Assembly: GCA_002293685.1 (NCBI GenBank)
Contig: DBDS01000006.1
Coordinates: 180,909 to 244,908, forward strand
Source: Patescibacteria group bacterium UBA926
Lineage (GTDB): Bacteria; Patescibacteriota; Doudnabacteria; UBA920
DNA length: 64,000 nucleotides
Reading direction: 5' to 3'
Positions 6,716 through 53,676 of the stretch are shown one piece after another. Each line of letters begins with the position of its first letter. Position 1 is the stretch's first letter. The position numbers were made by a program, and so were the translations under genes. Under the pieces are notes generated by a model. It did no database searches. It had not been told where the DNA came from and saw only the letters and a program-made list of their open reading frames with translations.

Positions 6716-8089
6716 ATGACAACTCCTCCAGAGTCAAAAACTTTCTACAACGTAATGCCTGAAGTCACTAACGGACCTGTTATAAAACCAAAGGTAGCAA
6801 CCCCGCTACCACCAACCCCTCAAGCTAAAATCTCTATCCCTCAAGCACCTTCCGCTAAAAAGAATGGCAAGAAAATTTTTCTGTTTATCGTCTTAGGAAT
6901 AATTATTCTCGGAGCTATAGGTGCGGGAATCTATTTCTTAATAGCTAAATCACCAGACCAATCTGCAAATACCGAAAATACTATTTCTGACACCACACCA
7001 GAAGTACCACCTATAGCCGATGTATCAACTCCTGCAGATTGGCTGTTGAAATATTTTGGCAATGAAACTTGTACGGAACTAGTTGTTTGCGGTGATAAAT
7101 CTGATCCAGACCGTGATGGCCTTGACAACTACTCTGAATTTATCAGTGGAACTGACCCAAATAATCCCGATACAGATGGTGATGGAATTGCCGACGGTGA
7201 CGAAGTAAATATTTTTAATACCGACCCATTACTTTCTAGAACTTTTAGAACGGGTGAGTATTCAGATTTAGAATTTATAAAAGGTGGTTACGATATCACC
7301 ACTAACGAACCTTACACCAGTCAAAAGTTAATAGAAATTAAATCTAAAATTCAACAATTCGGTTTACATCAACCAACTTTATCTTCGCTTGGCCCTCTCA
7401 GTTTCCAACTTTATGAATTTACAGATCCAAACCAACCCACACTACCTGCGGATTTAGACATGACTCCTGAAGCAAAATTAGATAGAGATAGCCAACGCCA
7501 GAGCACTATAAAAAAAATTGGTGGGGCTTTACTTAAATACAAAGATGATAAAAAATCCTATCCACCGACTGATGATTTTATTGTGATGTCCGATATGGTT
7601 CGTTCTTATAACACAGTCGCTACAAACTACAATGACCCCATTGATATTCAACCGTACAAATACGGTTACCAGTCTATCAACAATAATACTGAATTCACAT
7701 TAACTTACTACAGCGAAACTCAAAATCAATTGATTAAGTACTCTCAGAAAAACGCCGAGGACGACGCAGCAAAGGAAAATACTAAAGCTTTTGATGATCA
7801 AAGAAAACTAGATTTGGAGCGCATGCAGGAAGCATTGCTAGTGTGGTCAACGGTTCAATTAGACCCAGCTAGTGATAAAGAATTTGTATTCCCAACAGTT
7901 CAGGGACTAAAAGCTGAACTTGTACCACGTTACATGACCACCATTCCAACTGACCCAGTCACAAAGCAGGATTATCAGTATGAAGTTGGGCCTAACTTTG
8001 ATACTTTTACGATCCGGGCGGCATTGCAAAATCCAGAAGCTGGAACAACTGGTTACATGTGCAATCAGACTGAATGTAGAAATTACTAA
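6716..8089 (+). CDS. exported/membrane-anchored protein with thrombospondin type-3-like calcium-binding repeats
   Basis: N-terminal TM helix; DPDRDGLDNYSEFISGTDPNNPDTDGDGIADGDE repeats. Confidence 0.45.
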   Translation: MTTPPESKTFYNVMPEVTNGPVIKPKVATPLPPTPQAKISIPQAPSAKKNGKKIFLFIVLGIIILGAIGAGIYFLIAKSPDQSANTENTISDTTPEVPPIADVSTPADWLLKYFGNETCTELVVCGDKSDPDRDGLDNYSEFISGTDPNNPDTDGDGIADGDEVNIFNTDPLLSRTFRTGEYSDLEFIKGGYDITTNEPYTSQKLIEIKSKIQQFGLHQPTLSSLGPLSFQLYEFTDPNQPTLPADLDMTPEAKLDRDSQRQSTIKKIGGALLKYKDDKKSYPPTDDFIVMSDMVRSYNTVATNYNDPIDIQPYKYGYQSINNNTEFTLTYYSETQNQLIKYSQKNAEDDAAKENTKAFDDQRKLDLERMQEALLVWSTVQLDPASDKEFVFPTVQGLKAELVPRYMTTIPTDPVTKQDYQYEVGPNFDTFTIRAALQNPEAGTTGYMCNQTECRNY

Positions 8090-8101
8090 TAACTTAATTT
8101 T

Positions 8102-8500
8102 ATGTTGAACTTTTTAAAAAATCTGTTCGGAGCTTCGAAACCTAACAGCAAAATAATTGCGGCGAAAGTTACAAAAATAGAAAAGCATCCTAACGCGGAC
8201 CGTCTCCGCGTTATTAGTTTAACCGATGGGGTAAAGATTATTGAACCGGTTGTTTGTGGTGCGTTCAATTTCGAAGTAGGGGACATCGTTGCATTAGCTC
8301 TGCCTGGCGCGACTATTGCCCAGAACATTCATTCAGAAGAGCATGAATCGTTTGTATTAAGTACAGCCAAGATCCGCGGCATAGAAAGTCAGGGAATGAT
8401 TTGCGCTGAATTTGAACTCGGACTAACCAATACTCCAGGCGATAAACCCGAAATTATGATATTGCCACCAGACACAAAACTTGGTAAAATGGTTGTCTAA
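8102..8500 (+). CDS. stand-alone tRNA-binding domain protein (homolog of PheT N-terminal B1 domain / CsaA-Myf fold)
   Basis: KHPNADRLRVI...GMICAEFELG matches PheT N-terminal tRNA-binding domain. Confidence 0.6.
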   Translation: MLNFLKNLFGASKPNSKIIAAKVTKIEKHPNADRLRVISLTDGVKIIEPVVCGAFNFEVGDIVALALPGATIAQNIHSEEHESFVLSTAKIRGIESQGMICAEFELGLTNTPGDKPEIMILPPDTKLGKMVV

Positions 8501-8501
8501 T

Positions 8502-9641
8502 ATGTCACATTTAATTATTCCCTCAGACGAAGAAAACCGTCTTAAAATTGAACTCGATAAACGAACCGACGCAGAAGCTGGCCGCATCCGTAGGTATTTA
8601 GAGATGGAGGATCTGTCTCGTGCAGAGTCAGGGCCGCTTCGTGAACTAATCGACAGAATCACAAGTCTTCCACAGTTCAACGATTTTGATATTATTCAAA
8701 TTCCTGAAATCGTTCCGGCGAGCGAAAGCTTTGATTTGTTCAATTTTCCGGCAGACCATCCAGCACGCAGCAAAAGTGATACTTATTACGTAGACGAAGA
8801 AAATATTCTTCGCACTCACACCACCGTGATGTGGTACTACTACTTCGCCCAAGAAGAGATTCGTACCAAAATCGCCGAGAACAAACCGTTAGGTGTTTTG
8901 TCTTACGGAAAAGTTTACCGTAAAGATGAAATTGACCGTAATCACATGAACATCTTCCATCAAGTTGATGGTTTGTACTTACATCCAACAAGCGAAAAAA
9001 CTATCACTCAAGATGACTTGAAAGATATTTTAGTTAATGTTGTGAAAGCTGCTTTCGGTGAAGATATCAAATATCGATTCAACGATGACAATTTCCCTTA
9101 CACGCATTCATCCCTCGAAATGGAAGTAGACAAAGACGGGAAATGGGTAGAAGTGCTTGGCGCAGGTTTAGTACAACCAGGCGTTTTAGAAAAACTGAAC
9201 GTTGATCCTAATCAATACAATGGTTGGGCGTTTGGTTTCGGCTTAGAGCGCTTAGCGATTATTGGCATGGAGCTTCCAGATATTCGTTTACTATGGAGTA
9301 AAGATGAACGCGTAATCAAACAACTCAAACTCGGTCAGAAATATGTTGAAGTAAGTAAGTACCCACCAATTGTCCGTGATATTTCCTTTATTGTTGATAA
9401 AACTTTTGAACCGAACAATTATTTCGACTTAATTCGCGATATCGGCGGCGACCTTGTAGAGGAAGTAGAACTACTTGATAAGTACGAAAACGCAGAAAAG
9501 TTTGGCGCCGACAAAGTTTCATACACTTACCGAATCACTTATCGTTCAACTGAACGAACCTTAGAAACCTCAGAAGTAGACCCACTGCAAGACGAAGTTT
9601 ACAAACAAACAGCTGAACAATTTAACGCGGAGTTGCGCTAA
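8502..9641 (+). CDS. pheS: phenylalanine--tRNA ligase alpha subunit with C-terminal FDX-ACB anticodon-binding domain
   Basis: FNFPADHPAR, RTHTT, FHQVDGLYL, GFGLERLAI class II motifs; C-terminal YPPIVRDISFIVD...VSYTYRITYRS matches PheT C-terminal FDX-ACB domain. Confidence 0.8.
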   Translation: MSHLIIPSDEENRLKIELDKRTDAEAGRIRRYLEMEDLSRAESGPLRELIDRITSLPQFNDFDIIQIPEIVPASESFDLFNFPADHPARSKSDTYYVDEENILRTHTTVMWYYYFAQEEIRTKIAENKPLGVLSYGKVYRKDEIDRNHMNIFHQVDGLYLHPTSEKTITQDDLKDILVNVVKAAFGEDIKYRFNDDNFPYTHSSLEMEVDKDGKWVEVLGAGLVQPGVLEKLNVDPNQYNGWAFGFGLERLAIIGMELPDIRLLWSKDERVIKQLKLGQKYVEVSKYPPIVRDISFIVDKTFEPNNYFDLIRDIGGDLVEEVELLDKYENAEKFGADKVSYTYRITYRSTERTLETSEVDPLQDEVYKQTAEQFNAELR

Positions 9642-9688: not shown

Positions 9689-10321
9689 ATGAATCAGAAG
9701 AAGTTAATCACTGTTTTATCTATTGCTATCCTCGCACTCATAGTAGTGGGTTATACTTATTGGAATAATTCCAACAATAACAAGCTAGCAGAGCAGTCAC
9801 TTACGGATATATTTCCGAATAGTAATACAGTGGACAATAACAGCGCTCCTCTAAAATCATTGAACACAAACACTCAACAATCCTCCAACTCAAACCCAGC
9901 CCAAAGAGACGAGACCGCTAGCTGGAAAATTTATACTAGCTCTCAATATGGATACACAATCAAGTATCCAGAAAACTTCTCCATACAAACAGGCAGTAGC
10001 GGTCCCGGAGGTACAATCTTTACATTGGCTATTAACTCTGAACCTGTTAATACAGAAGGCGCGGGTCAGTCAAAATATCTTTGGATCGGGGTTGAGCCAA
10101 AACGCACATTATCACAATGTGAAAACTCAGAAGGCAAAATCACTATTGATGGCTACTCGGTGGAAAAATGCATCGAGCAAGGTTCATTCTTTGGACAAGG
10201 CAAAGGCATGCTAGCTAGTATCAATCACGGTAATTACTCTTATTTTTTTAGCGCAGACTACTACGACAAAAATAGTGCCACTGTAGACAAAATTATCGCT
10301 ACTTTCAGATTCATAAAATAA
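9689..10321 (+). CDS. hypothetical exported protein
   Basis: N-terminal signal/anchor helix, Asn/Ser-rich linker. Confidence 0.4.
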   Translation: MNQKKLITVLSIAILALIVVGYTYWNNSNNNKLAEQSLTDIFPNSNTVDNNSAPLKSLNTNTQQSSNSNPAQRDETASWKIYTSSQYGYTIKYPENFSIQTGSSGPGGTIFTLAINSEPVNTEGAGQSKYLWIGVEPKRTLSQCENSEGKITIDGYSVEKCIEQGSFFGQGKGMLASINHGNYSYFFSADYYDKNSATVDKIIATFRFIK

Positions 10322-10455: not shown

Positions 10456-12600
<2,145 letters not shown>

Positions 12601-13031: not shown

Positions 13032-13260
13032 GTTAACAATGAACCTCCTTTAAATTCAAAATCTAACCAAAATTTACTCAAATAATTATACATTGTCAAC
13101 CAATTGACTTATATGTCTAAATAAAGTATTATTTATTCAAAGCCCCGAAGCGGGTTTTAAAAAAGCTTCAGATTACTTTAAAATCTGGCTTAATTAAAGG
13201 GAATATGACAAATTAGATCCCGCACTCGCTATGCCCGTTCGGGATGAATGCATACATAAT

Positions 13261-13443
13261 ATGAATAAAGTTATTCAATTTTTTAAAGAAGTTAAAGCAG
13301 AATTATGGAAGGTAGTTTGGCCAAGTCGCCGCGACGCAATCCGTTACACTATCACTATCCTTGTCTTTTCTTTAGTAGTCGCTGCCATTCTTGGTGCCGC
13401 TGACTTTGGATTATTAAAAGGCTTCGAGGCCTTGATTAACTAA
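13261..13443 (+). CDS. secE: preprotein translocase subunit SecE
   Basis: FFKEVKAELWKVVWPSRRD + single TM; position before nusG. Confidence 0.7.
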   Translation: MNKVIQFFKEVKAELWKVVWPSRRDAIRYTITILVFSLVVAAILGAADFGLLKGFEALIN

Positions 13444-13444
13444 T

Positions 13445-13990
13445 ATGAGTAAACAGCAAGTAACGGGTGAGCGTCATTGGTACGTTCTTCATACATATAG
13501 TGGTTATGAAGATAGCGTGGCGATCAACCTTAAACAGCGTATCGAAAACTTAAACATGCAGGACAAAATCTTCGACGCGATTGTACCGAAAGAAAAGAAG
13601 ATTAAAATCCGCGATGGAAAACGTTCAACTGTTGAAGAGAAAATCTTCCCAGGTTACGTGCTCGTCAACATGATCGTAACCGACGACTCTTGGTATGTTG
13701 TTCGTAACACACCAAACGTAACAGGTTTCGTAGGAAGCGGAACTATTCCAACTCCTGTGTCAGAAGAAGAATGGTCATTCCTTAACAAGCGCATGGGCGC
13801 TGATGAACCAAAGTTCAAAGTCGACTTCGAAGTTGGCGAACTCGTTCAGATTACCGACGGTCCTTTCAAGGACTATGAAGGTAAGATTGGTGAAATCGAC
13901 CAAGCTAAAGGTAAAGTAAAAGTATTCGTAACTATTTTCGGTCGCGAAACTCCTGTCGAACTAGATTTCTTACAAGTTAAAAAAGTTTAA
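13445..13990 (+). CDS. nusG: transcription termination/antitermination factor NusG
   Basis: NGN domain WYVLHTYSGYE and KOW GELVQITDGPFKDYEGKI. Confidence 0.85.
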   Translation: MSKQQVTGERHWYVLHTYSGYEDSVAINLKQRIENLNMQDKIFDAIVPKEKKIKIRDGKRSTVEEKIFPGYVLVNMIVTDDSWYVVRNTPNVTGFVGSGTIPTPVSEEEWSFLNKRMGADEPKFKVDFEVGELVQITDGPFKDYEGKIGEIDQAKGKVKVFVTIFGRETPVELDFLQVKKV

Positions 13991-14037
13991 AATTACCAAT
14001 TACGAATTGAGCGAATGTACTAATTCGAAATATCAAT

Positions 14038-14104
14038 GTCATTCTGACCCCGCACTTGATGCGGGGGAAGAATCCCATAGATCCTTCACTGCGTTCAGGG
14101 TGAC
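14038..14104. repeat. hairpin repeat, GTCATYCTGA...GAAGRATC family
   Basis: gtcattctgaccccgca..gcgggggaagaatc + gatccttcactgcgttcagggtgac. Confidence 0.55.
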
Positions 14105-14178
14105 ACAACAATTAATAAGTAGTCGGTTCCGGTTAAGACTTGGAATCTCGCCGCTAATAACGGTTACTACTCAACACA

Positions 14179-14604
14179 ATGGCAAAAAAAGTCAAATCAA
14201 TGGTGAAGCTTCAGCTTCCCGCTGGTAAAGCAACTCCAGCACCTCCTGTAGGTACTGCACTTGGACCGCATGGTATCAACATCGCGGACTTTACCAAAGC
14301 ATTCAACGAGCAAACCGCTCCAATGGGCGACACAATTGTTCCAGTTGAAATGACTATCTATGAAGATCGGTCATTCACATTTATTCTAAAAACTCCTCCG
14401 GCATCTGTACTTGTCCGCAAGGCAGCTGGTCTGGCTAAAGGATCGAGCAATCCTCTTACAACCAAAGTAGGAAAGATTACATCGGCTCAACTCCGTGAAA
14501 TCGCTGAGACCAAGATGCCTGATCTTAACGCTGTAGACATAGAAGCCGCTGAACAGATTATTCGTGGAACAGCGAGAAGCATGGGTATCGAAATTAAGGA
14601 TTAG
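14179..14604 (+). CDS. rplK: 50S ribosomal protein L11
   Basis: [14 protein letters not shown], classic L11. Confidence 0.9.
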
Positions 14605-16896: not shown

Positions 16897-17487
16897 ATGA
16901 TATTATCCGATTCAGACATCCAAAAAGCCCTTAAAACAGGGTCGATCACAGTTGAGCCATTATTCCCTGGAGCAATTCAACCAGCCAGCGTAGACCTTCA
17001 CTTAGGAGCAGATTTTCTAGTTTTCGACGCCTCACATTATGCTTATATCGACCCGGCCCAACCAATCGATGACATGATGAAACCTGTTAGTATCAATGAC
17101 GAAAAACAGTTTATTTTACACCCAGGCGAGTTCGCTTTGGGTTTAACTTACGAGGTTGTCGGTGTTTCAGATTCGATGGTTGGTCGGTTGGAAGGGAAGT
17201 CTTCTTTGGGGCGTATCGGACTTATCATTCATGCCACTGCTGGATATTTAGATCCAGGTAATAAATTAAAAATGACATTAGAGCTTCACAACATTTCCGG
17301 CTTGCCTATTAAACTCTATTACAAAATGCCGATTGCGCAACTTTCATTTTCACCGCTCTCAAGCAAAGCAGATGTTCCTTACGGCGCTAACAAAATCGGA
17401 AGTAAGTACTACGGTGCAACCAAACCACAAGCTTCTCAGTATTTCAAAAACTTTCAGAATAATAACGCTTGGATGAAATTTGAATAA
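16897..17487 (+). CDS. dcd: dCTP deaminase
   Basis: MILSDSDI start, dUTPase-like fold motifs. Confidence 0.75.
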   Translation: MILSDSDIQKALKTGSITVEPLFPGAIQPASVDLHLGADFLVFDASHYAYIDPAQPIDDMMKPVSINDEKQFILHPGEFALGLTYEVVGVSDSMVGRLEGKSSLGRIGLIIHATAGYLDPGNKLKMTLELHNISGLPIKLYYKMPIAQLSFSPLSSKADVPYGANKIGSKYYGATKPQASQYFKNFQNNNAWMKFE

Positions 17488-28304: not shown

Positions 28305-29534
28305 ATGAAATCAAAGATCTACTTAGACAACGCAGCCTCAACGAAACCTGCTAAGGCCGTTTTAGACGCTATGAAGCCCTACCTAAAGGGATATTTTGGC
28401 AATCCTAGCAGTTTACACGAACTTGGAGTTTCTTCTAGACAGGCGATTGATGGCGCAAGAGAACAGGTCGCGGGAGTGTTGAATAGCCGACCTTCAGAAA
28501 TAATTTTTACCGGCGGGGGAACAGAGAGTATCAATCTAGCAATTTTTGGTGTCGCCAAGGCCTATCTAAAGCAGCACAAGAAGCCTGGTCGAATTATTGT
28601 TTCCAAAATCGAACACGAAGCGGTTTTAGAATCTGTAAAAGCTTTAGAAGCCGATGGTTGGAAAATTGATTTCCTTCAGGTAGATAAACTTGGATTCGTG
28701 AACCCGAAAGATTTATCAAAACTAATCAAACCAGACACTGCGTTAGTGTCAGTTATGTATGCCAATAATGAAGTTGGTACCATCCAACCTCTTGTACAAC
28801 TTGGCAGTGTAATAGCTGGAGTGAACCGTAACCGCAGATTAAAGAAGTTATCTAATGTGGTTTTTCACACTGATGCGTGTCAGGCTGGAGGCAATCTAGA
28901 ATTAGATGTTCAGAAACTGAAAGTTGATTTACTCACTCTCAACGGAAGCAAGATTAACGGACCGAAAGGTGCGGGAATTCTTTTTGTTCGAACTGGAACT
29001 AAGATTGAACCATTGATTTATGGTGGGGGACAAGAGCGGGGACTACGAAGCGGAACAGAGAATACTCCGGCGATTATCGGCTTCGCGACTGCTCTTCAAC
29101 TTGCGCAAAAAAATCGTTTGAAGAATGTAAAAACTTTGCACAGCCTGCAAACTTTTTTAGAAACCAATCTTAAGAAAATTTCTGGAGTCACCATAAACGG
29201 TCCAAAGAATTCTAAACTTATTCAAGACGAATTTAATTTTGGACTCCTTAAGTTACCGGGCACAATCAACTTTTCGGTTAAGAATACTGAAGGCGAATCA
29301 CTGATGCTGTATTTAGACGCAGCTGGATTTGCTGTGGCAACTGGGAGTGCATGCACAACAGGTTCAGAAGATCCTTCACACGTGCTATTAGCGATGGGAG
29401 TTGAACCTGTATTGGCCAAGTCGACAATTAGACTCAGTTTAGGTTATGATGTAACCAAAGCAAACCTTTCGAAGTTAACCACCGTTTTATCTAAGACGGT
29501 CGACATGCTGAAAAAAACAAAACAAGAAATCTAA
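28305..29534 (+). CDS. cysteine desulfurase (class V aminotransferase, NifS/IscS-like)
   Basis: PLP-Lys region HTDACQAGG...NGSKINGPKG and catalytic loop GSACTTG. Confidence 0.8.
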   Translation: MKSKIYLDNAASTKPAKAVLDAMKPYLKGYFGNPSSLHELGVSSRQAIDGAREQVAGVLNSRPSEIIFTGGGTESINLAIFGVAKAYLKQHKKPGRIIVSKIEHEAVLESVKALEADGWKIDFLQVDKLGFVNPKDLSKLIKPDTALVSVMYANNEVGTIQPLVQLGSVIAGVNRNRRLKKLSNVVFHTDACQAGGNLELDVQKLKVDLLTLNGSKINGPKGAGILFVRTGTKIEPLIYGGGQERGLRSGTENTPAIIGFATALQLAQKNRLKNVKTLHSLQTFLETNLKKISGVTINGPKNSKLIQDEFNFGLLKLPGTINFSVKNTEGESLMLYLDAAGFAVATGSACTTGSEDPSHVLLAMGVEPVLAKSTIRLSLGYDVTKANLSKLTTVLSKTVDMLKKTKQEI

Positions 29535-29558
29535 ACACTTTACAGGAGGTAAAAATTA

Positions 29559-29765
29559 ATGCAAAGAAAACCAGGCGAAACCCCTGAACAACTAAGGCAA
29601 AGAATTCATGAAATTTATCCCGATCTAACTGAAGTCGAAACAGAAGTTATGCTGGTAGGCTTAATCGGTACGAGGATCGACCAACATGGACGCATCTTAG
29701 GCCCTAAACTTACTCATCATTATGACGAGGATGCAAACCCTGTAAAAGGTACTAAGGTACCTTAA
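29559..29765 (+). CDS. hypothetical small protein
   Basis: AGGAGG RBS; ORF only. Confidence 0.3.
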   Translation: MQRKPGETPEQLRQRIHEIYPDLTEVETEVMLVGLIGTRIDQHGRILGPKLTHHYDEDANPVKGTKVP

Positions 29766-30007
29766 CCTACGTAGTAAAGATCTAAATTGATTCTTTGCTA
29801 CTTTTTTTATATGACGACCGTCAATCAAATAACAAGTATCCTTAAGTGGAGAGTGTATAATAATCAGAAGTAGAATTATATGTAGGTCAGGGCAATATAA
29901 TGAAAAGAGATAGAGAATAACGCAAAATTCAAATCATACTACGGACATTGAACAATATACATAGGGGAGCATGTGTTTTGAGATTAACACCGTGTCGCAC
30001 AATGTAT

Positions 30008-30155
30008 GTTCTACGACATGCACATGCATGTCGTAGAACATCCGTCATATTTTGCGACAAATTTTTTGTCGCAAAATATGACAATCATCGCGCCGCTCAA
30101 TTTCATGACTATCACTTCCACCGTCTATGCATCAGGAAATAAATTCCTGATGCAT
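30008..30155. repeat. three consecutive perfect inverted repeats (13-bp, 15-bp and 12-bp stems) in a convergent intergenic region
   Basis: gttctacgacatg/catgtcgtagaac; atattttgcgacaaa/tttgtcgcaaaatat; atgcatcaggaa/ttcctgatgcat. Confidence 0.7.
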
Positions 30156-30226
30156 GGACTTAAACTCAACTTATAAATATTCTAAGGTAGTGCTCTCCCC
30201 TCCTTATAGGTAGGGGATTCGCAAAT

Positions 30227-30261
30227 CAAAAAAACCGCCCAAGGCGGTTTTGAATTTTCAC
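30227..30261. terminator. bidirectional terminator
   Basis: aaaaaaaccgcc caa ggcggttttgaatttt. Confidence 0.65.
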
Positions 30262-30282
30262 GACACTTTCTCCCCTCTTAAA

Positions 30283-31281
30283 CTAAAAACATTTTCCTTG
30301 CTCTTTAGGATGACATGAAAAGTGCATATAATCTTTCAAGCTTCTCCACTCTCCACCCCAACCAAAGCCTGCAGCTTTAAAAGTTCTAACAACTGTACCA
30401 TTAATGGGTAAAGATAATAGATCACACCCCGTAGACGGGCAAGGTCTCCAATAGTCACCAACTCGTTTATTTCCTTTTATATAATAATTTTGTTTCCAGT
30501 TAATATCAAAGGTTAATCCGAATGAATGAGTTGATAACTTAGAGCTACCCACTGCTTGTCTCCAAGTAAAACTTCCCAGATCATTAATTGGTGGCTTTTC
30601 TGGACTATCATAAATTTGCTGAAACACAGCTTTTACTTTCTGCTCCAGACATCGCTGAACTGTTACATTATACTGTGTTGGAGATTTTGTATTACCAGAA
30701 AGTTTCCAAGCAGGTACAGAAAAAGTTACCATGTTGGCACGGGCTTCTGACTCAGAAGCAAAGGTACTTTTACAACCACTACTACTAGGCATATCAGCGC
30801 TATCATAGAAATCACCTGCTAAACAACCAGAACCAAAACCCACCTCTTCACAACCTGGGATGGGTTCTGCGTCAAAAATCGGTGGCTGGATCGGTTTAAA
30901 AGCGACGAGCGACGGATTAATAAAGTACAATAACATATAGCTTCCGCCCAGTATCGCAATACCAACTAAAGAGTTCATCAAAATTGATTTGGCTTTTCCT
31001 TTGCCAGTCTCCCCGCTTGTAATATATAAATAACCAGCCAAGACCAAGAAGAAAACCAAGACCAACGCACCGGCACTTAAACTAAATCGGTAAAGTCGAT
31101 TTATACATCGCTCTAAATCTTTTCCATCAGCCGGTTCACTCGGTGTGCACAAATAATCTTTCAAACTCGAATCAACGCCACTATAAGTTGGCAGTGCATT
31201 TGTCTCTTGTGCAAATACAAAAACAGGGTTGAGCGCAACCAAGACAAATCCGATTATAACCAGTATCTTTATAAACTTCAT
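30283..31281 (-). CDS. exported protein: conserved N-terminal signal-peptide + double-TM Cys module fused to peptidase M15 (VanY/LAS-like) domain
   Basis: STHSFGLTFDI (SxHxxGxAxD) and DYMHF (DxxH) zinc motifs; N-terminal module paralogous to 32527-33654. Confidence 0.6.
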   Translation of the reverse strand: MKFIKILVIIGFVLVALNPVFVFAQETNALPTYSGVDSSLKDYLCTPSEPADGKDLERCINRLYRFSLSAGALVLVFFLVLAGYLYITSGETGKGKAKSILMNSLVGIAILGGSYMLLYFINPSLVAFKPIQPPIFDAEPIPGCEEVGFGSGCLAGDFYDSADMPSSSGCKSTFASESEARANMVTFSVPAWKLSGNTKSPTQYNVTVQRCLEQKVKAVFQQIYDSPEKPPINDLGSFTWRQAVGSSKLSTHSFGLTFDINWKQNYYIKGNKRVGDYWRPCPSTGCDLLSLPINGTVVRTFKAAGFGWGGEWRSLKDYMHFSCHPKEQGKCF

Positions 31282-52590: not shown

Positions 52591-53676
52591 TCAAAGCACG
52601 GAATCTTCTAACTTCAACCTTTCGGTTTTGGTTTTCAGTAGAAGATATTCTAAAATTTCCAGATCATAACCACCGCTTCCCACAGAATTCGTGGGCCTTA
52701 TTGCCATATTTTCCTTTGCTATTTTCAAATGAGGCTGGCGGAATTTCTCCATCCCTAGGAGAATCGACACCAATCCCTTGATAGAGTTCTGAGCAATAGG
52801 GTTTTCCAAGGACGAACACCTTGAAACTTGCAAAGCAATTGATGGCCTAACCATTATTTTACCAATGCGATTCCTGTACGCTTTTGGTAAATATTGCGTA
52901 CTTTCGTTCCAATAGCGAACATAGCTGATCTCATTACAATCTACGCCCCACAATATGAGATCCATAAGACATATAGGCATCTGAGCACCTCCAGGAGCAA
53001 AGTACTTCTTACCCCCGATTATCTTTGGCTCAAAAAAAGGTCGCAATGAATGAGTAAAAACCTCTGGAGAGATCTGCTTTCTCACTACGACTATATTTTT
53101 AACCATTTCTGAAAAATGATTTACGACTTCTTCACAAATGTTTGCATATTCGGGGTCTAGTAAGTCAAGTGACTGCAGAATCTCGAGCCCTGCTATGCAT
53201 ACTGGTAAATGACGCATTCCACTCACAAAAGAGTCTATAAATATCCTTTCTTCAGAATACATTGTAAAACGTCTCTGATTTTCACCTTTGGGATTTCTTG
53301 GCCCGTAGGTATAGACAGTATCAACTGGTAGCTCACGTGTAACTTCCCCAAGTTTTAACAAGACAGGCTCGAGCAGTGGAATGCTAGCAATTTTTACACC
53401 CCAACGATTAAGGGATGAGGCTAACATGCTCAAATCCCTGGTAACAGCCATGGCTGGTAACGCACTCATGGAAATGATGTTTTGGTATCCTACACTTGAG
53501 AAAGTCTTATCAAGTAGATTTAACATCTTAGAGGTGTCACCCGTTTGACTCAAGAAAGGAAATTCATTCATAAAACCCTTATCCCAGCCCAACGGATCAA
53601 GTTCAGCCACTGTTGCATCAATAAGATTCGAAAGTTTATACACGGAATACTCCGAACTCTCTTTAATAATATTCAT
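52591..53676 (-). CDS. indoleamine 2,3-dioxygenase-like (IDO/PrnB fold) heme enzyme
   Basis: FAPGGAQMPICLMDLILWGV ~ IDO [21 protein letters not shown]; proximal-His-like RQPHLKI; C-terminal GSGGYDLEILEYL ~ GTGGTDLMNFL. Confidence 0.5.
   Translation of the reverse strand: MNIIKESSEYSVYKLSNLIDATVAELDPLGWDKGFMNEFPFLSQTGDTSKMLNLLDKTFSSVGYQNIISMSALPAMAVTRDLSMLASSLNRWGVKIASIPLLEPVLLKLGEVTRELPVDTVYTYGPRNPKGENQRRFTMYSEERIFIDSFVSGMRHLPVCIAGLEILQSLDLLDPEYANICEEVVNHFSEMVKNIVVVRKQISPEVFTHSLRPFFEPKIIGGKKYFAPGGAQMPICLMDLILWGVDCNEISYVRYWNESTQYLPKAYRNRIGKIMVRPSIALQVSRCSSLENPIAQNSIKGLVSILLGMEKFRQPHLKIAKENMAIRPTNSVGSGGYDLEILEYLLLKTKTERLKLEDSVL

What the first reader, a model, noticed from the sequence alone, without database searches (positions are those of the whole stretch)
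8102..9641. Dismantled PheRS: a stand-alone PheT-B1 tRNA-binding domain protein plus PheS fused to the FDX-ACB anticodon-binding domain, with no full pheT
The 132-aa ORF matches only the N-terminal tRNA-binding (Myf/EMAP) domain of PheT. The PheS ORF carries an extra ~95-aa C-terminal domain matching the PheT C-terminal FDX-ACB anticodon-binding domain. The next gene is unrelated. This mirrors the monomeric mitochondrial-type PheRS (catalytic plus ACB domain, no editing B3/B4 domain) rather than the bacterial (alpha-beta)2 enzyme. It implies loss of Tyr-tRNAPhe editing.
Basis: partly seen in the sequence, partly recalled or inferred. Interest (0 to 1): 0.55.

Follow-up and report, generated by a model that had tools for sequence, protein, structure and literature searches.

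The report
Single-chain mitochondrial-type PheRS in CPR bacteria
This ultra-small (CPR/Patescibacteria) bacterium carries, where related bacteria keep the usual two-subunit phenylalanyl-tRNA synthetase genes, a one-chain enzyme built like the mitochondrial one plus a small separate tRNA-binding protein, which bears on where the mitochondrial enzyme came from and suggests these bacteria have no PheRS proofreading domain.

Summary
ORF1 (8102-8500, 132 aa) is a stand-alone OB-fold tRNA-binding domain. One base after its stop, ORF2 (true start ATG 8502, 379 aa) is a PheS-type catalytic core fused to an FDX-ACB anticodon-binding domain. Its best matches by sequence and by predicted structure are human mitochondrial PheRS.

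Both genes are under strong purifying selection. The fusion enzyme occurs in at least 158 species-level Patescibacteria genomes. ORF1 accompanies it only in the Doudnabacteria-like subclade.

No B3/4, B5 or B6-7 part of PheT is found in the window or in about 85 related loci. The pair sits directly upstream of gyrB-secE-nusG-rplK. In a related Paceibacteria bin that slot holds canonical pheS-pheT. One Paceibacteria bin with canonical pheST, whose whole gene table could be read, has no fusion enzyme.

I conclude that this is the housekeeping PheRS and that it replaced pheST. Absence of pheT from this particular genome could not be checked directly. No paper describing it was found. NCBI labels the enzyme "hypothetical protein"; JGI labels the two genes "alpha chain" and "beta chain".

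The parts
8102..8500 (+). ORF1: 132-aa stand-alone tRNA-binding OB-fold protein, like the B2 domain of PheT and like YtpR. The stop codon TAA lies at 8498-8500.
   Evidence: Pfam tRNA_bind 5.5e-15. NCBIfam pheT_bact positions 40-149, 101.5 bits; YtpR 78.3 bits, below its cutoff of 100. AF2 model pLDDT 87.7; best PDB match is the B2 domain of P. aeruginosa PheT (4P71_A, rmsd 1.7 A over 115 columns), then YtpR-type 3BU2. 714 homologues; the top 120 are all 129-186 aa stand-alone proteins. dN/dS 0.05.
8102..8155 (+). N-terminal tail of ORF1: a conserved short motif M-x-N-F-L-K-x-L-F followed by a linker of variable length. It is predicted to be disordered. It may be a docking peptide or a relic of the PheT N-terminus (inference).
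   Evidence: Alignment A2 shows the motif conserved while the linker varies by 0 to about 25 residues. pLDDT is below 50 for residues 1-3 and 6-13.
8156..8488 (+). OB-fold tRNA_bind domain of ORF1 (residues 19-129).
   Evidence: Pfam coordinates. The PheT profile HMM hits positions 40-145.
8502..9641 (+). ORF2: 379-aa single-chain PheRS of the mitochondrial type (PheRS-M). Its ATG lies 1 nt after the ORF1 stop.
   Evidence: Homologues are 379 aa; sequence read. PDB best hits are human mitochondrial PheRS, E 1e-60. AF2 pLDDT 91.3, TM 0.75 to 3CMQ/5MGH. NCBIfam pheS_mito 244.5 (cutoff 258.35), SrmL 251.7 (cutoff 300), pheS 178.4 (cutoff 237.45). dN/dS 0.026.
8607..9323 (+). Class IIc catalytic core (tRNA-synt_2d) with motifs 1-3. 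These include HPAR, RTHTT, GKVYRKDEIDRNHMNIFHQ, FPYTHSS and GWAFGFGLERL.
   Evidence: Pfam 4e-57. Invariant columns in alignment A1 include H86, R89, R104, H106, T108, R140, F152-H153-Q154, F198-P199-Y200-T201, G241-W242-A243-F244-G245 and E249-R250. 37.8% identity to E. coli PheS residues 100-327.
9324..9353 (+). Junction between the PheS-type C-terminus (DIRLLWSKDERVIKQL) and the start of the B8-type domain (KYPPIVRDISF). Human mitochondrial PheRS has the same junction layout.
   Evidence: Residue-by-residue alignment with 5MGU: 'DIRLFWCEDERFLKQF...SKYPAVINDISF'.
9354..9638 (+). FDX-ACB (PheT B8-type) anticodon-binding domain.
   Evidence: Pfam FDX-ACB 1.2e-24, profile 1-94 of 94. pheT_bact positions 690-798. 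PheT profile HMM positions 687-791, 1.3e-13.
10522..12600 (+). gyrB, the first synteny anchor downstream of the pair.
   Evidence: Pfam. gyrB adjoins the fusion enzyme in L001, L004 and L005 and in several of the more distant Parcubacteria loci inspected. In bin PMX.50, gyrB directly follows canonical pheS-pheT.
13231..14604 (+). secE (13231-13443), nusG (13445-13990) and rplK (14179-14604): further synteny anchors. dcd follows at 16897-17487.
   Evidence: The order gyrB-secE-nusG-rplK-dcd is the same in PMX.50.

Best explanation
ORF2 is the cell's housekeeping phenylalanyl-tRNA synthetase, built on the single-chain mitochondrial plan (PheRS-M).

How it is built and works:
- A PheS-type class IIc catalytic core activates Phe and transfers it to tRNA-Phe.
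- A directly fused FDX-ACB domain, the equivalent of the C-terminal B8 domain of PheT, reads the GAA anticodon.
- By analogy with human mitochondrial PheRS, the ACB domain probably swings from a closed to an open position when tRNA binds.
- There is no beta subunit. There is therefore no B3/B4 editing site, and accuracy rests on the active-site pocket.

In this lineage the enzyme took the place of canonical pheS-pheT at the same chromosomal position, upstream of gyrB-secE-nusG-rplK.

ORF1 is co-transcribed and translationally coupled with ORF2, with a 1-nt spacer. It is a free-standing copy of the PheT B2-type OB fold. Most likely it works in trans as a tRNA-binding helper for the minimal enzyme. 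It might be tethered through its conserved N-terminal peptide.

Shown here: domain make-up, fold, conservation, distribution and synteny.
Inferred: Phe specificity, monomeric state, sole-PheRS status in this genome, absence of editing, and any ORF1-ORF2 contact.
For: Domains and fold:
- tRNA-synt_2d plus a complete FDX-ACB domain.
- Best PDB sequence hits are human mitochondrial PheRS, E 1e-60.
- The AF2 model (pLDDT 91.3) superposes over its full length on closed-state mitochondrial PheRS 3CMQ/5MGH, TM 0.75. The open-state 3TUP gives 0.58.

Active site:
- Motif 1-3 residues are invariant, as are the pocket positions that align with E. coli T251 and A294 (T201 and A243 here).

A real and constrained gene:
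- dN/dS 0.026 for ORF2 and 0.05 for ORF1.
- The top 120 homologues are 67-99% identical.
- 158 relatives were found among GTDB species genomes. By record title, all but one of the 80 kept are Patescibacteria or unclassified bacteria (Doudna-, Yanofsky-, Giovannoni-, Nomura-, Zambryski-, Lipton- and Vogelbacteria); L029 is titled Candidatus Binatia.

No rest of PheT nearby:
- tblastn and a PheT profile HMM find only B2 and B8 in the window and in about 85 loci.

Replacement in situ:
- Window order is ORF1, ORF2, gyrB, secE, nusG, rplK ... dcd.
- The order around the pair is the same in the 851-kb contig L001 and in the complete genome CP064996.1.
- Paceibacteria bin PMX.50 has pheS, pheT, gyrB, secE, nusG, rplK, dcd (PMC9763046 supplement).

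Either/or pattern:
- The full 866-gene table of bin PMX_810_sub has one canonical pheS and one B2-less pheT. It has no second PF01409 or PF03147 protein and no PF01588 protein (PMC10936435 Table S2).

Common origin with the mitochondrial enzyme:
- In NJ trees of the catalytic domain alone, all fusion enzymes group apart from three canonical PheS in 100 of 100 bootstraps.
- The junction layout is shared with the human enzyme.

ORF1:
- B2-like fold.
- 1-nt spacer to ORF2.
- An ORF1 homologue lies directly upstream of the enzyme in 25 of 80 species loci, all in the closest clade.
- 43 contig lengths are shared between the top-120 homologue lists of the two proteins.
Against: - Absence of a canonical pheS/pheT elsewhere in this genome, or in the complete relative CP064996.1, was not tested. 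No tool here reads a whole genome, and my attempt through the protein index failed.
- ORF2 scores just below the curated cutoff of the mitochondrial PheRS model (244.5 against 258.35). It scores similarly on the 'mystery ligase' SrmL model (251.7 against 300), so curated models do not assign it.
- The pheST-gyrB adjacency rests on one bin.
- The either/or pattern rests on one fully read bin, plus one bin whose table is only partly stored.
- 53 of 80 species loci have the enzyme without an adjacent ORF1. ORF1 is therefore not required for the enzyme in general and may be a generic tRNA-binding protein.
- In E. coli PheRS the B2 domain is dispensable for aminoacylation and contributes to editing (Roy and Ibba 2006; title as listed in the references of PMC5370408). 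That function has no obvious place in an enzyme without an editing domain.
- The phylogeny uses NJ and only three canonical PheS outgroups, none from CPR.
Confidence: 0.72

Rival explanations
1. ORF2 is an accessory paralogue with another or unknown job, like the NCBIfam 'PheS-related mystery ligase SrmL'. The genome would still carry canonical pheS-pheT elsewhere for translation.
For: ORF2 scores 251.7 bits on the SrmL model over nearly its whole length, and falls below the cutoffs of both PheRS models. A fusion protein also occurs in an Oligoflexia MAG, in a non-housekeeping context. That is a lineage expected from general knowledge to have normal pheST; this was not checked. Whole-genome absence of pheT was not tested.
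Against: ORF2 is below the SrmL cutoff of 300. It occupies the pheS-pheT slot of the conserved gyrB-secE-nusG-rplK cluster. The fully tabulated Paceibacteria bin with canonical pheST has no such protein. dN/dS is 0.026 and identity stays at 60-89% across 80 species-level genomes, as expected for an essential synthetase. The Phe-pocket and motif residues are invariant.
Confidence: 0.1
2. ORF1 is not a PheRS component. It would be a general tRNA-binding or chaperone protein of the YtpR/Trbp111/CsaA kind that merely happens to lie upstream of the synthetase in one subclade.
For: The YtpR model gives 78 bits and the YtpR-type structure 3BU2 is the best PDB sequence hit. A deposited integrative model pairs B. 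subtilis YtpR with GatB rather than PheRS (9A77). Most Parcubacteria with the fusion enzyme have no adjacent ORF1. The N-terminal region of the enzyme looks the same with or without ORF1.
Against: The best profile match is the PheT B2 region (101.5 bits, against 78 for YtpR) and the best structural match is PheT B2 at rmsd 1.7 A. It lacks the N-terminal YtpR domain (alignment to YtpR profile positions 71-183 only). The 1-nt coupling to ORF2 is kept wherever ORF1 exists. Trbp111-type dimeric proteins match less well (TM 0.56).
Confidence: 0.3
3. The fusion enzyme was not built in CPR bacteria. It came in by horizontal transfer, from a eukaryote (FARS2-like gene) or through a huge phage, and later displaced pheST.
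For: Fusion enzymes of about 350 aa sit on phage-like contigs of 160 kb and 341 kb. They cluster with eukaryotic mitochondrial enzymes in the NJ tree. A single-gene PheRS is easy to transfer. The distribution inside Parcubacteria is patchy: some lineages keep pheST.
Against: The CPR and other bacterial sequences form their own clade (92 of 100 bootstraps) and are not nested inside eukaryotes. The gene sits precisely in the pheS-pheT slot, which is expected for in-place remodelling and not for a random insertion. The enzyme spans several Patescibacteria classes, including a code-25 lineage.
Confidence: 0.3
4. The pair is an assembly or gene-calling artefact, for example a frameshifted or truncated pheST.
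For: None beyond the unusual architecture.
Against: The same two intact ORFs occur on independent contigs from NCBI, JGI, ENA and Logan, including an 851-kb contig and a closed 943-kb genome. Both show strong purifying selection. The structure models are confident.
Confidence: 0.01

Closest known systems
Mitochondrial monomeric PheRS (human FARS2, yeast MSF1; NCBIfam TIGR00469 pheS_mito; 'PheRS-M' of AARS Online, PMC11580382; PDB 3CMQ closed, 3TUP open with tRNA)
   Same: Same two-module plan: a PheS-type catalytic core followed directly by an FDX-ACB domain. Same junction layout. No N-terminal coiled coil and no beta subunit or editing domain. The model superposes over its full length (TM 0.75) and these are the best sequence hits. 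The catalytic domains group together against canonical PheS.
   Different: Encoded in a bacterial chromosome in a housekeeping operon, with no transit peptide. It lacks the eukaryotic insertion that splits the HMMER alignment into two stretches. It scores below the TIGR00469 cutoff. It forms a separate bacterial clade. In this subclade it is accompanied by a stand-alone B2-type protein, for which I know of no mitochondrial counterpart (own knowledge; not tested).
Canonical bacterial (alpha-beta)2 PheRS, PheS/PheT (TIGR00468/TIGR00472; PDB 3PCO, 1PYS, 7DAW)
   Same: The catalytic core is 37.8% identical to E. coli PheS residues 100-327. ORF1 corresponds to PheT B2 and the C-terminal domain of ORF2 corresponds to PheT B8. 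The chromosomal slot is the same as pheS-pheT in bin PMX.50.
   Different: No PheS N-terminal domain: there is no PF02912 hit. No B1, B3/4 (editing), B5 or B6-7. The heterotetramer architecture and the editing site are therefore absent.
B2-less PheT of many CPR bacteria (noted in PMC5370408; PMX_810_sub_00194 and PMX.50_00317 in the Kuroda/Nakajima supplements)
   Same: Same radiation and the same trend towards trimming PheRS. Those beta subunits have B3/4, CLM, B5 and FDX-ACB but no tRNA_bind domain.
   Different: Those lineages keep two subunits and the editing domain. Here everything of PheT except B8 (fused) and a free B2-like protein is gone.
SrmL, 'PheS-related mystery ligase' (NCBIfam NF051887)
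   Same: ORF2 aligns to profile positions 13-347 of 349 with 251.7 bits. SrmL apparently has the same catalytic-plus-C-terminal-domain length class.
   Different: Below the curated cutoff of 300. The function of SrmL is unknown by its own name. ORF2 sits in a housekeeping slot and keeps all PheRS motifs. I could not obtain SrmL sequences or their context.
Free-standing tRNA-binding OB-fold proteins: YtpR (NF045760, PDB 3BU2), Trbp111/CsaA (PDB 3ERS, 8VTZ), Arc1p/EMAP II C-terminal domains
   Same: Same OB fold (PF01588). These set the precedent for trans-acting tRNA-binding cofactors of synthetases (the roles of Arc1p and Trbp111 are from general knowledge).
   Different: ORF1 lacks the N-terminal domain of YtpR. 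It matches Trbp111 and MetRS-C less well (TM 0.56) than PheT B2 (0.69-0.73). It has its own conserved N-terminal peptide and is coupled to a PheRS gene.

Membership tests
Mitochondrial-type monomeric PheRS (PheRS-M / TIGR00469) | Class IIc PheS-type catalytic core with motifs 1, 2 and 3 | tested here: met
   PF01409 4e-57. Motif residues are invariant across 51 homologues.
Mitochondrial-type monomeric PheRS (PheRS-M / TIGR00469) | FDX-ACB (B8-type) anticodon-binding domain fused to the C-terminus of the catalytic chain | tested here: met
   PF03147 1.2e-24, profile 1-94 of 94. pheT_bact positions 690-798. PheT HMM positions 687-791.
Mitochondrial-type monomeric PheRS (PheRS-M / TIGR00469) | Whole-protein score above the curated TIGR00469 cutoff (258.35 bits) | tested here: not met
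   244.5 bits. A 63%-identical relative, P0241, passes with 264.3. The model was built on eukaryotic sequences (own knowledge).
Mitochondrial-type monomeric PheRS (PheRS-M / TIGR00469) | Full-length fold equal to solved mitochondrial PheRS | tested here: met
   AF2 model pLDDT 91.3. Foldseek top six hits are human mitochondrial PheRS, TM 0.74-0.75, E about 1e-33.
Mitochondrial-type monomeric PheRS (PheRS-M / TIGR00469) | Catalytic domain shares ancestry with FARS2 rather than arising from an independent fusion | tested here: met
   NJ on 204 catalytic-domain columns: fusion enzymes are monophyletic against three canonical PheS in 100 of 100 bootstraps. The outgroup is small and includes no CPR PheS.
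Mitochondrial-type monomeric PheRS (PheRS-M / TIGR00469) | Works without a beta subunit: no pheT in the genome and a monomeric enzyme | tested here: inconclusive
   No PheT core in the window or in about 85 loci. The pair lies in the pheST slot. The whole genome could not be read, and the oligomeric state is not testable here.
Mitochondrial-type monomeric PheRS (PheRS-M / TIGR00469) | Charges tRNA-Phe with Phe and has no editing activity | not testable with these tools
   Needs an enzyme assay.
Canonical bacterial PheS (TIGR00468) | Score above cutoff (237.45) and an N-terminal Phe_tRNA-synt_N coiled-coil domain | tested here: not met
   178.4 bits. No PF02912 hit. Only about 40 residues precede the core.
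Canonical bacterial PheT (TIGR00472) | B1-B8 multidomain chain including B3/4 and B5, with a score above 402.65 | tested here: not met
   ORF1 scores 101.5 bits on profile positions 40-149 only. The ORF2 C-terminus scores 77.9 bits on positions 690-798 only.
SrmL (NF051887) | Score above the curated cutoff of 300 | tested here: not met
   251.7 bits.
YtpR family (NF045760) | Score above cutoff 100 and a two-domain protein of about 185-200 aa | tested here: not met
   78.3 bits, aligned to profile positions 71-183 only. ORF1 is 132 aa.
Trbp111/CsaA dimeric tRNA-binding proteins | Best structural match and a dimer interface | tested here: inconclusive
   TM 0.56 to 3ERS and 8VTZ, against 0.69-0.73 to PheT B2. 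Dimerisation was not tested.

The most novel reading that the evidence does not exclude
The single-chain PheRS was invented in Patescibacteria. An in-place deletion or fusion inside a pheS-pheT operon next to gyrB joined the PheS core to the last domain of PheT. The mitochondrial FARS2 lineage and the copies on huge phages would then descend from that bacterial invention. On this reading, mitochondrial PheRS is neither a eukaryotic chimera nor an alphaproteobacterial inheritance, and it may have moved on phages.
Probability: 0.2. Interest if true: 0.85.

Novelty: new variant of a known kind. Interest (0 to 1): 0.62.

Why it matters
1. Monomeric PheRS is generally presented as an organellar form; AARS Online's family table gives only human FARS2 and its structure 3CMQ as the example (PMC11580382). 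Here it appears as the likely housekeeping enzyme of a large bacterial radiation. It forms a bacterial clade beside the eukaryotic enzymes. That makes the unresolved origin of mitochondrial PheRS directly testable.

2. It implies cellular translation systems with no PheRS editing domain, so with no cis-editing of Tyr- or meta-Tyr-tRNA-Phe. This bears on how much proofreading a minimal cell needs.

3. Annotation consequences. In the four named NCBI records among the hits the enzyme is called 'hypothetical protein'. JGI/KEGG-style pipelines call ORF2 'alpha chain' and the 132-aa ORF1 'beta chain'. Metabolic reconstructions therefore look normal while the real architecture is missed. Marker-gene sets that use the pheS/pheT models would probably undercount these genomes (inference).

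4. A 379-aa single-chain bacterial PheRS, and the 348-354-aa copies on huge phages, could be useful compact parts for engineering orthogonal translation.

Tried and rejected
- Whole-genome search for pheT was not possible. The single genome-contig scan went on mapping the distribution of ORF2.
- I tried to surface full-length PheTs that share a B2 domain with ORF1. The query was an artificial chimera: ORF1 plus E. coli PheT residues 151-795 with every fourth residue conservatively changed to break shared 5-mers. The output was flooded by gammaproteobacterial PheT and said nothing about CPR. Its only use was to supply sequences for a PheT profile HMM.
- The two canonical PheS representatives nearest to ORF2 (P0389, P0375) lie on contigs under 2 kb. 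One is followed by an ordinary PheT N-terminus that does not look CPR-like, so they gave no CPR PheT.
- A scan of viral contigs with the phage-borne enzyme P0259 found no relatives.
- Ten literature searches found no paper describing a bacterial or CPR single-chain PheRS. The library lacks most subscription journals, so this is not proof of novelty.
- The supplements of PMC12281837 and PMC9530719 held nothing useful.
- No tRNA gene lies in the window, so tRNA-Phe identity elements could not be examined.
- Promoter and terminator scans were at background level for promoters and showed no terminator between ORF1 and ORF2.
- The idea that the N-terminal peptide of ORF1 (MLNFLKNLF) is a relic of the universal PheT N-terminus (compare MNTALSWIKAYV in L088) rests on a motif too short to test. 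I keep it only as a suggestion.
Full report
**1. What is in the sequence**

- The region lies in a run of co-directional, tightly packed + strand genes.
- ORF1 (8102-8500, 132 aa) ends with TAA at 8498-8500. An ATG follows at 8502.
- The ORF listing extends ORF2 back to a TTG at 8481 (386 aa). Nearly all of the close homologues are 379 aa and cover 98% of the query. The real gene is therefore most likely 8502-9641, 379 aa, separated from ORF1 by one base.
- No terminator-like site lies between the two genes.
- Window GC is about 40%. Gene content includes GyrB, SecE, NusG, L11, L1, RF1, ThyA, DHFR, Tmk, CTP synthase, FtsE/X, GluRS, Fmt and several pilin-like or cell-wall hydrolase genes. The closest relatives carry NCBI titles such as Candidatus Doudnabacteria and Patescibacteria group. 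Together these place the window in a CPR/Patescibacteria chromosome.

**2. Domain identity**

ORF1:
- It is a tRNA_bind OB fold (PF01588, 5.5e-15).
- Against NCBIfam it aligns best to positions 40-149 of the 798-position bacterial PheT model (101.5 bits). The YtpR model follows at 78.3 bits, below its cutoff.
- The AF2 model (pLDDT 87.7) matches PheT B2 domains best: 4P71_A at rmsd 1.7 A, TM 0.73. YtpR-type 3BU2 comes next. Dimeric Trbp111 and MetRS-C proteins match less well at TM about 0.56.

ORF2:
- It carries tRNA-synt_2d (4e-57) and a complete FDX-ACB domain (1.2e-24, profile 1-94 of 94).
- There is no PheS N-terminal coiled-coil domain.
- It falls between three curated models and reaches none of their cutoffs: SrmL 251.7 of 300, pheS_mito 244.5 of 258.35, pheS 178.4 of 237.45.
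- Against the PDB, human mitochondrial PheRS is best (E 1e-60). Bacterial PheS follows at 6e-43. PheT chains match only the last roughly 100 residues.
- The AF2 model (pLDDT 91.3, pTM 0.84) superposes over its full length on the closed form of human mitochondrial PheRS (TM 0.74-0.75). It fits the tRNA-bound open form less well (TM 0.58), as expected if only the relative position of the two domains differs.
- The join between the modules has the same layout as the human enzyme. The PheS-type C-terminus DIRLLWSKDERVIKQL is followed by a short linker and then KYPPIVRDISF. The human sequence reads DIRLFWCEDERFLKQF...SKYPAVINDISF.

**3. Are they real, functional genes?**

- Compared with the 96%-identical relative on an 851-kb contig, dN/dS is 0.052 for ORF1 and 0.026 for ORF2. 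More distant comparisons are saturated at synonymous sites but give equally low ratios where a ratio could be computed.
- Across 51 homologues the class II motifs are invariant: HPAR, RTHTT, the motif-2 R and FHQ, and the motif-3 GWAFG..ER.
- The two pocket positions that align with E. coli PheS T251 and A294 are also invariant (FPYT and GWA).
- This is what one expects of a working PheRS rather than a diverged paralogue.

**4. Distribution**

- The enzyme has thousands of homologues. The top 120 are 67-99% identical.
- A scan of one genome per GTDB species found 158 relatives. The best 80 are 60-89% identical. Their NCBI titles include Doudna-, Yanofsky-, Giovannoni-, Nomura-, Zambryski-, Lipton- and Vogelbacteria, Paceibacteria/Minisyncoccia and 'Patescibacteria group'.
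- ORF1 has about 700 homologues. The top 120 are all 129-186 aa stand-alone proteins.
- Forty-three contig lengths are shared between the two top-120 lists.
- Within the 80 species loci, an ORF1 homologue lies directly upstream of the enzyme in 25. Fifty-three loci with enough upstream sequence have none within 3 kb, and two cannot be judged.
- The 25 loci are those closest to the window. ORF1 is therefore a clade-specific companion, not a universal partner.
- The N-terminal 45 residues of the enzyme look the same with and without ORF1.

**5. Is there a pheT?**

- In the window, tblastn with E. coli PheT hits only ORF1 (PheT residues 45-154). The profile HMM in the next point adds the ORF2 C-terminus.
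- A profile HMM built from 40 PheT sequences was run on six-frame translations of the window and about 85 related loci. It finds only profile positions 40-145 and 687-791. Nothing matches 170-680.
- I could not read a whole genome.
- Two supplementary gene tables gave indirect but strong evidence.
  - In bin PMX.50 (Paceibacteria, 32-520/UBA5633 lineage) the consecutive genes 00316-00322 are pheS, pheT (B3/4, CLM, B5, FDX-ACB; no tRNA_bind), gyrB, secE, nusG, rplK and dcd (PMC9763046).
  - The window has ORF1, ORF2, a 210-aa ORF, gyrB, a 123-aa ORF on the minus strand, secE, nusG, rplK, DUF5671, rplA, a sigma factor and dcd.
  - The 851-kb contig and the closed genome CP064996.1 have the same order around the pair.
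  - The ORF1-ORF2 pair therefore sits in the pheS-pheT slot.
  - The table for bin PMX_810_sub is stored in full (866 genes). It has exactly one PF01409 protein (canonical pheS), one PF03147 protein (B2-less pheT) and no PF01588 protein (PMC10936435 Table S2). A canonical-type relative thus lacks the fusion enzyme.
- Together these results point to replacement, not addition.

**6. Relationship to the mitochondrial enzyme**

- The 150 best 50%-identity cluster representatives fall into two NJ clades when only the catalytic domain is used.
- Clade A, 92 of 100 bootstraps:
  - the CPR sequences;
  - an Oligoflexia MAG protein;
  - a protein whose gene has 13 in-frame TGA codons at conserved glycine positions, that is, from a code-25 CPR lineage.
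- Clade B, 63 of 100 bootstraps:
  - proteins from the eukaryotes Salpingoeca, Irineochytrium and Blumeria; the Blumeria protein is named a mitochondrial Phe-tRNA ligase by its sources;
  - 348-354-aa proteins on contigs of 160 kb and 341 kb that look like huge phages.
- All fusion enzymes group apart from E. coli PheS and two other canonical PheS in 100 of 100 bootstraps.
- With the shared junction, this supports a single origin for the fusion.
- Limits: NJ only, three outgroups, and no CPR canonical PheS available.
- The direction (CPR to eukaryotes, the reverse, or via phages) is open. The syntenic position favours in-place remodelling of pheS-pheT in CPR. I give that about 0.2 as a full scenario that also includes descent of FARS2 from it.

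**7. Mechanism proposed**

Shown:
- a single chain with a complete PheRS active-site signature and a complete anticodon-binding domain, in a fold equal to mitochondrial PheRS;
- no editing domain nearby;
- a coupled B2-type OB-fold gene.

Inferred from the solved human enzyme (PDB 3CMQ, 3TUP; Klipcan et al. 2008, as cited in PMC11580382):
- the enzyme acts as a monomer;
- the ACB domain rotates away from the core to admit tRNA-Phe and reads the anticodon;
- fidelity depends on the synthetic site only.

ORF1 most likely binds tRNA in trans and raises the affinity or positioning of tRNA-Phe for a minimal enzyme. That enzyme has lost the alpha coiled coil and most of beta, which help hold the tRNA in the heterotetramer.

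- Its conserved N-terminal peptide on a linker of variable length is the kind of feature that tethers a domain to a partner.
- This step is speculative. B2 is dispensable for aminoacylation in E. coli and linked to editing (Roy and Ibba 2006; title as listed in the references of PMC5370408).
- Most Parcubacteria manage without an adjacent ORF1.

**8. Known or new?**

- The kind of enzyme is well known from mitochondria.
- I found no paper in the searchable library that reports it in bacteria or CPR.
- One paper notes only that many CPR PheT lack B2 (PMC5370408).
- Public annotation hides it. The four named NCBI records among the hits, three CPR-clade proteins and the Oligoflexia protein, call the enzyme 'hypothetical protein'. 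JGI calls ORF2 'alpha chain' and ORF1 'beta chain'.
- The existence of the NCBIfam model 'PheS-related mystery ligase SrmL' shows that curators have met related bacterial proteins without assigning a function.
- I classify the finding as a new variant of a known kind: a bacterial, apparently housekeeping, mitochondrial-type PheRS that displaced pheST in place, here with a free B2-like companion.

**9. Verdict**

- Observation: confirmed.
- Interpretation: supported, with corrections (B2 not B1; genes abut; ORF1 is clade-specific) and one untested link (genome-wide absence of pheT).
- Interest: 0.62.

Noticed in passing
L006 (Logan SRR32456865_22369, 160,460 bp) gene 8001-9065; L091 (ENA ERZ19027398 scaffold_19, 340,874 bp) gene 7001-8047: Compact single-chain PheRS genes (354 and 348 aa, catalytic core plus FDX-ACB; the two scanned, P0259 and P0255 (P0397's cluster representative), pass the TIGR00469 cutoff) sit on large contigs that look like huge phages. 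Genes there are tightly packed and mostly without Pfam hits. Those with hits include PhageMetallopep, an SNF2 helicase, DNMK and dCMP deaminase. In both contigs a PcfJ-like gene lies nearby (directly upstream in L091, about 5 kb downstream in L006). In the NJ tree these proteins group with eukaryotic mitochondrial PheRS.
   Followed up: partly
L090 6001-7371 (Logan SRR2107213_219042): The gene for fusion enzyme P0247 has 13 in-frame TGA codons. Where compared by eye (four sites), they fall at conserved glycine positions, for example in the motif-3 GWAFGxG. The host therefore uses genetic code 25 (Gracilibacteria/Absconditabacteria). The stored protein was translated with TGA as Trp (table 4).
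   Followed up: yes
window 9689-10321 (+): A 210-aa ORF with an N-terminal membrane or signal segment and no Pfam match lies between the synthetase and gyrB. It is absent from the 96%-identical relative L001, which has a 166-bp spacer there. CP064996.1 has a different 145-aa gene at this spot. The spot is variable.
   Followed up: partly
window 8102-8155 (ORF1 residues 1-18) and alignment A2: A conserved N-terminal peptide M-x-N-F-L-K-x-L-F is followed by a low-complexity linker that varies by 0 to about 25 residues between species. It is predicted to be disordered. It loosely resembles the universal PheT N-terminus (M..S.W[IL]K.[YF]V).
   Followed up: partly
L007 8001-9245 (Oligoflexia MAG GCA_019694465.1, MBX7144632.1): A 414-aa catalytic-plus-FDX-ACB protein, 43% identical to ORF2, occurs outside CPR in a non-housekeeping neighbourhood with no tRNA_bind neighbour. 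NCBI calls it 'hypothetical protein'. It may be an accessory copy or an SrmL-like case.
   Followed up: partly
protein P0246 (398 aa, JGI/ENA contigs up to 45.6 kb): This member of the bacterial clade has a PheS-type core (residues 35-271). Its C-terminal roughly 127 residues match no Pfam family, FDX-ACB included. It may carry a different C-terminal module.
   Followed up: no
PMC10936435 Table S2 (PMX_810_sub_00194); PMC9763046 supplement file 2 (PMX.50_00317): Canonical PheT of these Paceibacteria has B3/4, CLM, B5 and FDX-ACB but no tRNA_bind (B2) domain. PMX_810_sub has no PF01588 protein anywhere in its 866 genes. B2 is therefore lost altogether in some relatives, while it survives as a separate gene in the window's clade.
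   Followed up: partly
window 52591-53676 (-): A 361-aa protein matches PrnB (monodechloroaminopyrrolnitrin synthase, PF08933, 3e-25), a haem enzyme related to tryptophan dioxygenases. This is unexpected in a genome with such reduced metabolism.
   Followed up: no
window 6716-8089 (+): A 457-aa protein with an N-terminal membrane segment, a bacterial TSP3 calcium-binding repeat and a weak type II secretion pseudopilin G match. It is the conserved upstream neighbour of ORF1 in L001, L004 and L005. In PMX.50 a predicted pilin-like protein (00312) is the last gene listed before pheS (rows 00313-00315 are absent from the table).
   Followed up: no
window about 29,500-30,300: Nearly all long ORFs are on the + strand before about 29.5 kb and mostly on the - strand from about 30.3 kb to the end, with a + strand block at about 39.6-43.1 kb. 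From there GC skew drops from about 0 to between -0.1 and -0.2. This looks like a convergence point of transcription and replication, possibly a terminus-like region.
   Followed up: no
window 8191-8213: A perfect 9-bp inverted repeat (TAACGCGGA...TCCGCGTTA) lies inside ORF1, in the codons for the most conserved motif (NADRLRVI). The terminator scan reported it on both strands. It is probably a coincidence of coding constraints.
   Followed up: no
L008-L087 record titles: Many species-representative MAGs carrying this enzyme are titled 'uncultured Candidatus Saccharibacteria bacterium', and one 'Candidatus Binatia'. Their enzyme and synteny match the Doudnabacteria and Parcubacteria genomes. 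The titles look like generic or wrong taxonomic labels.
   Followed up: no
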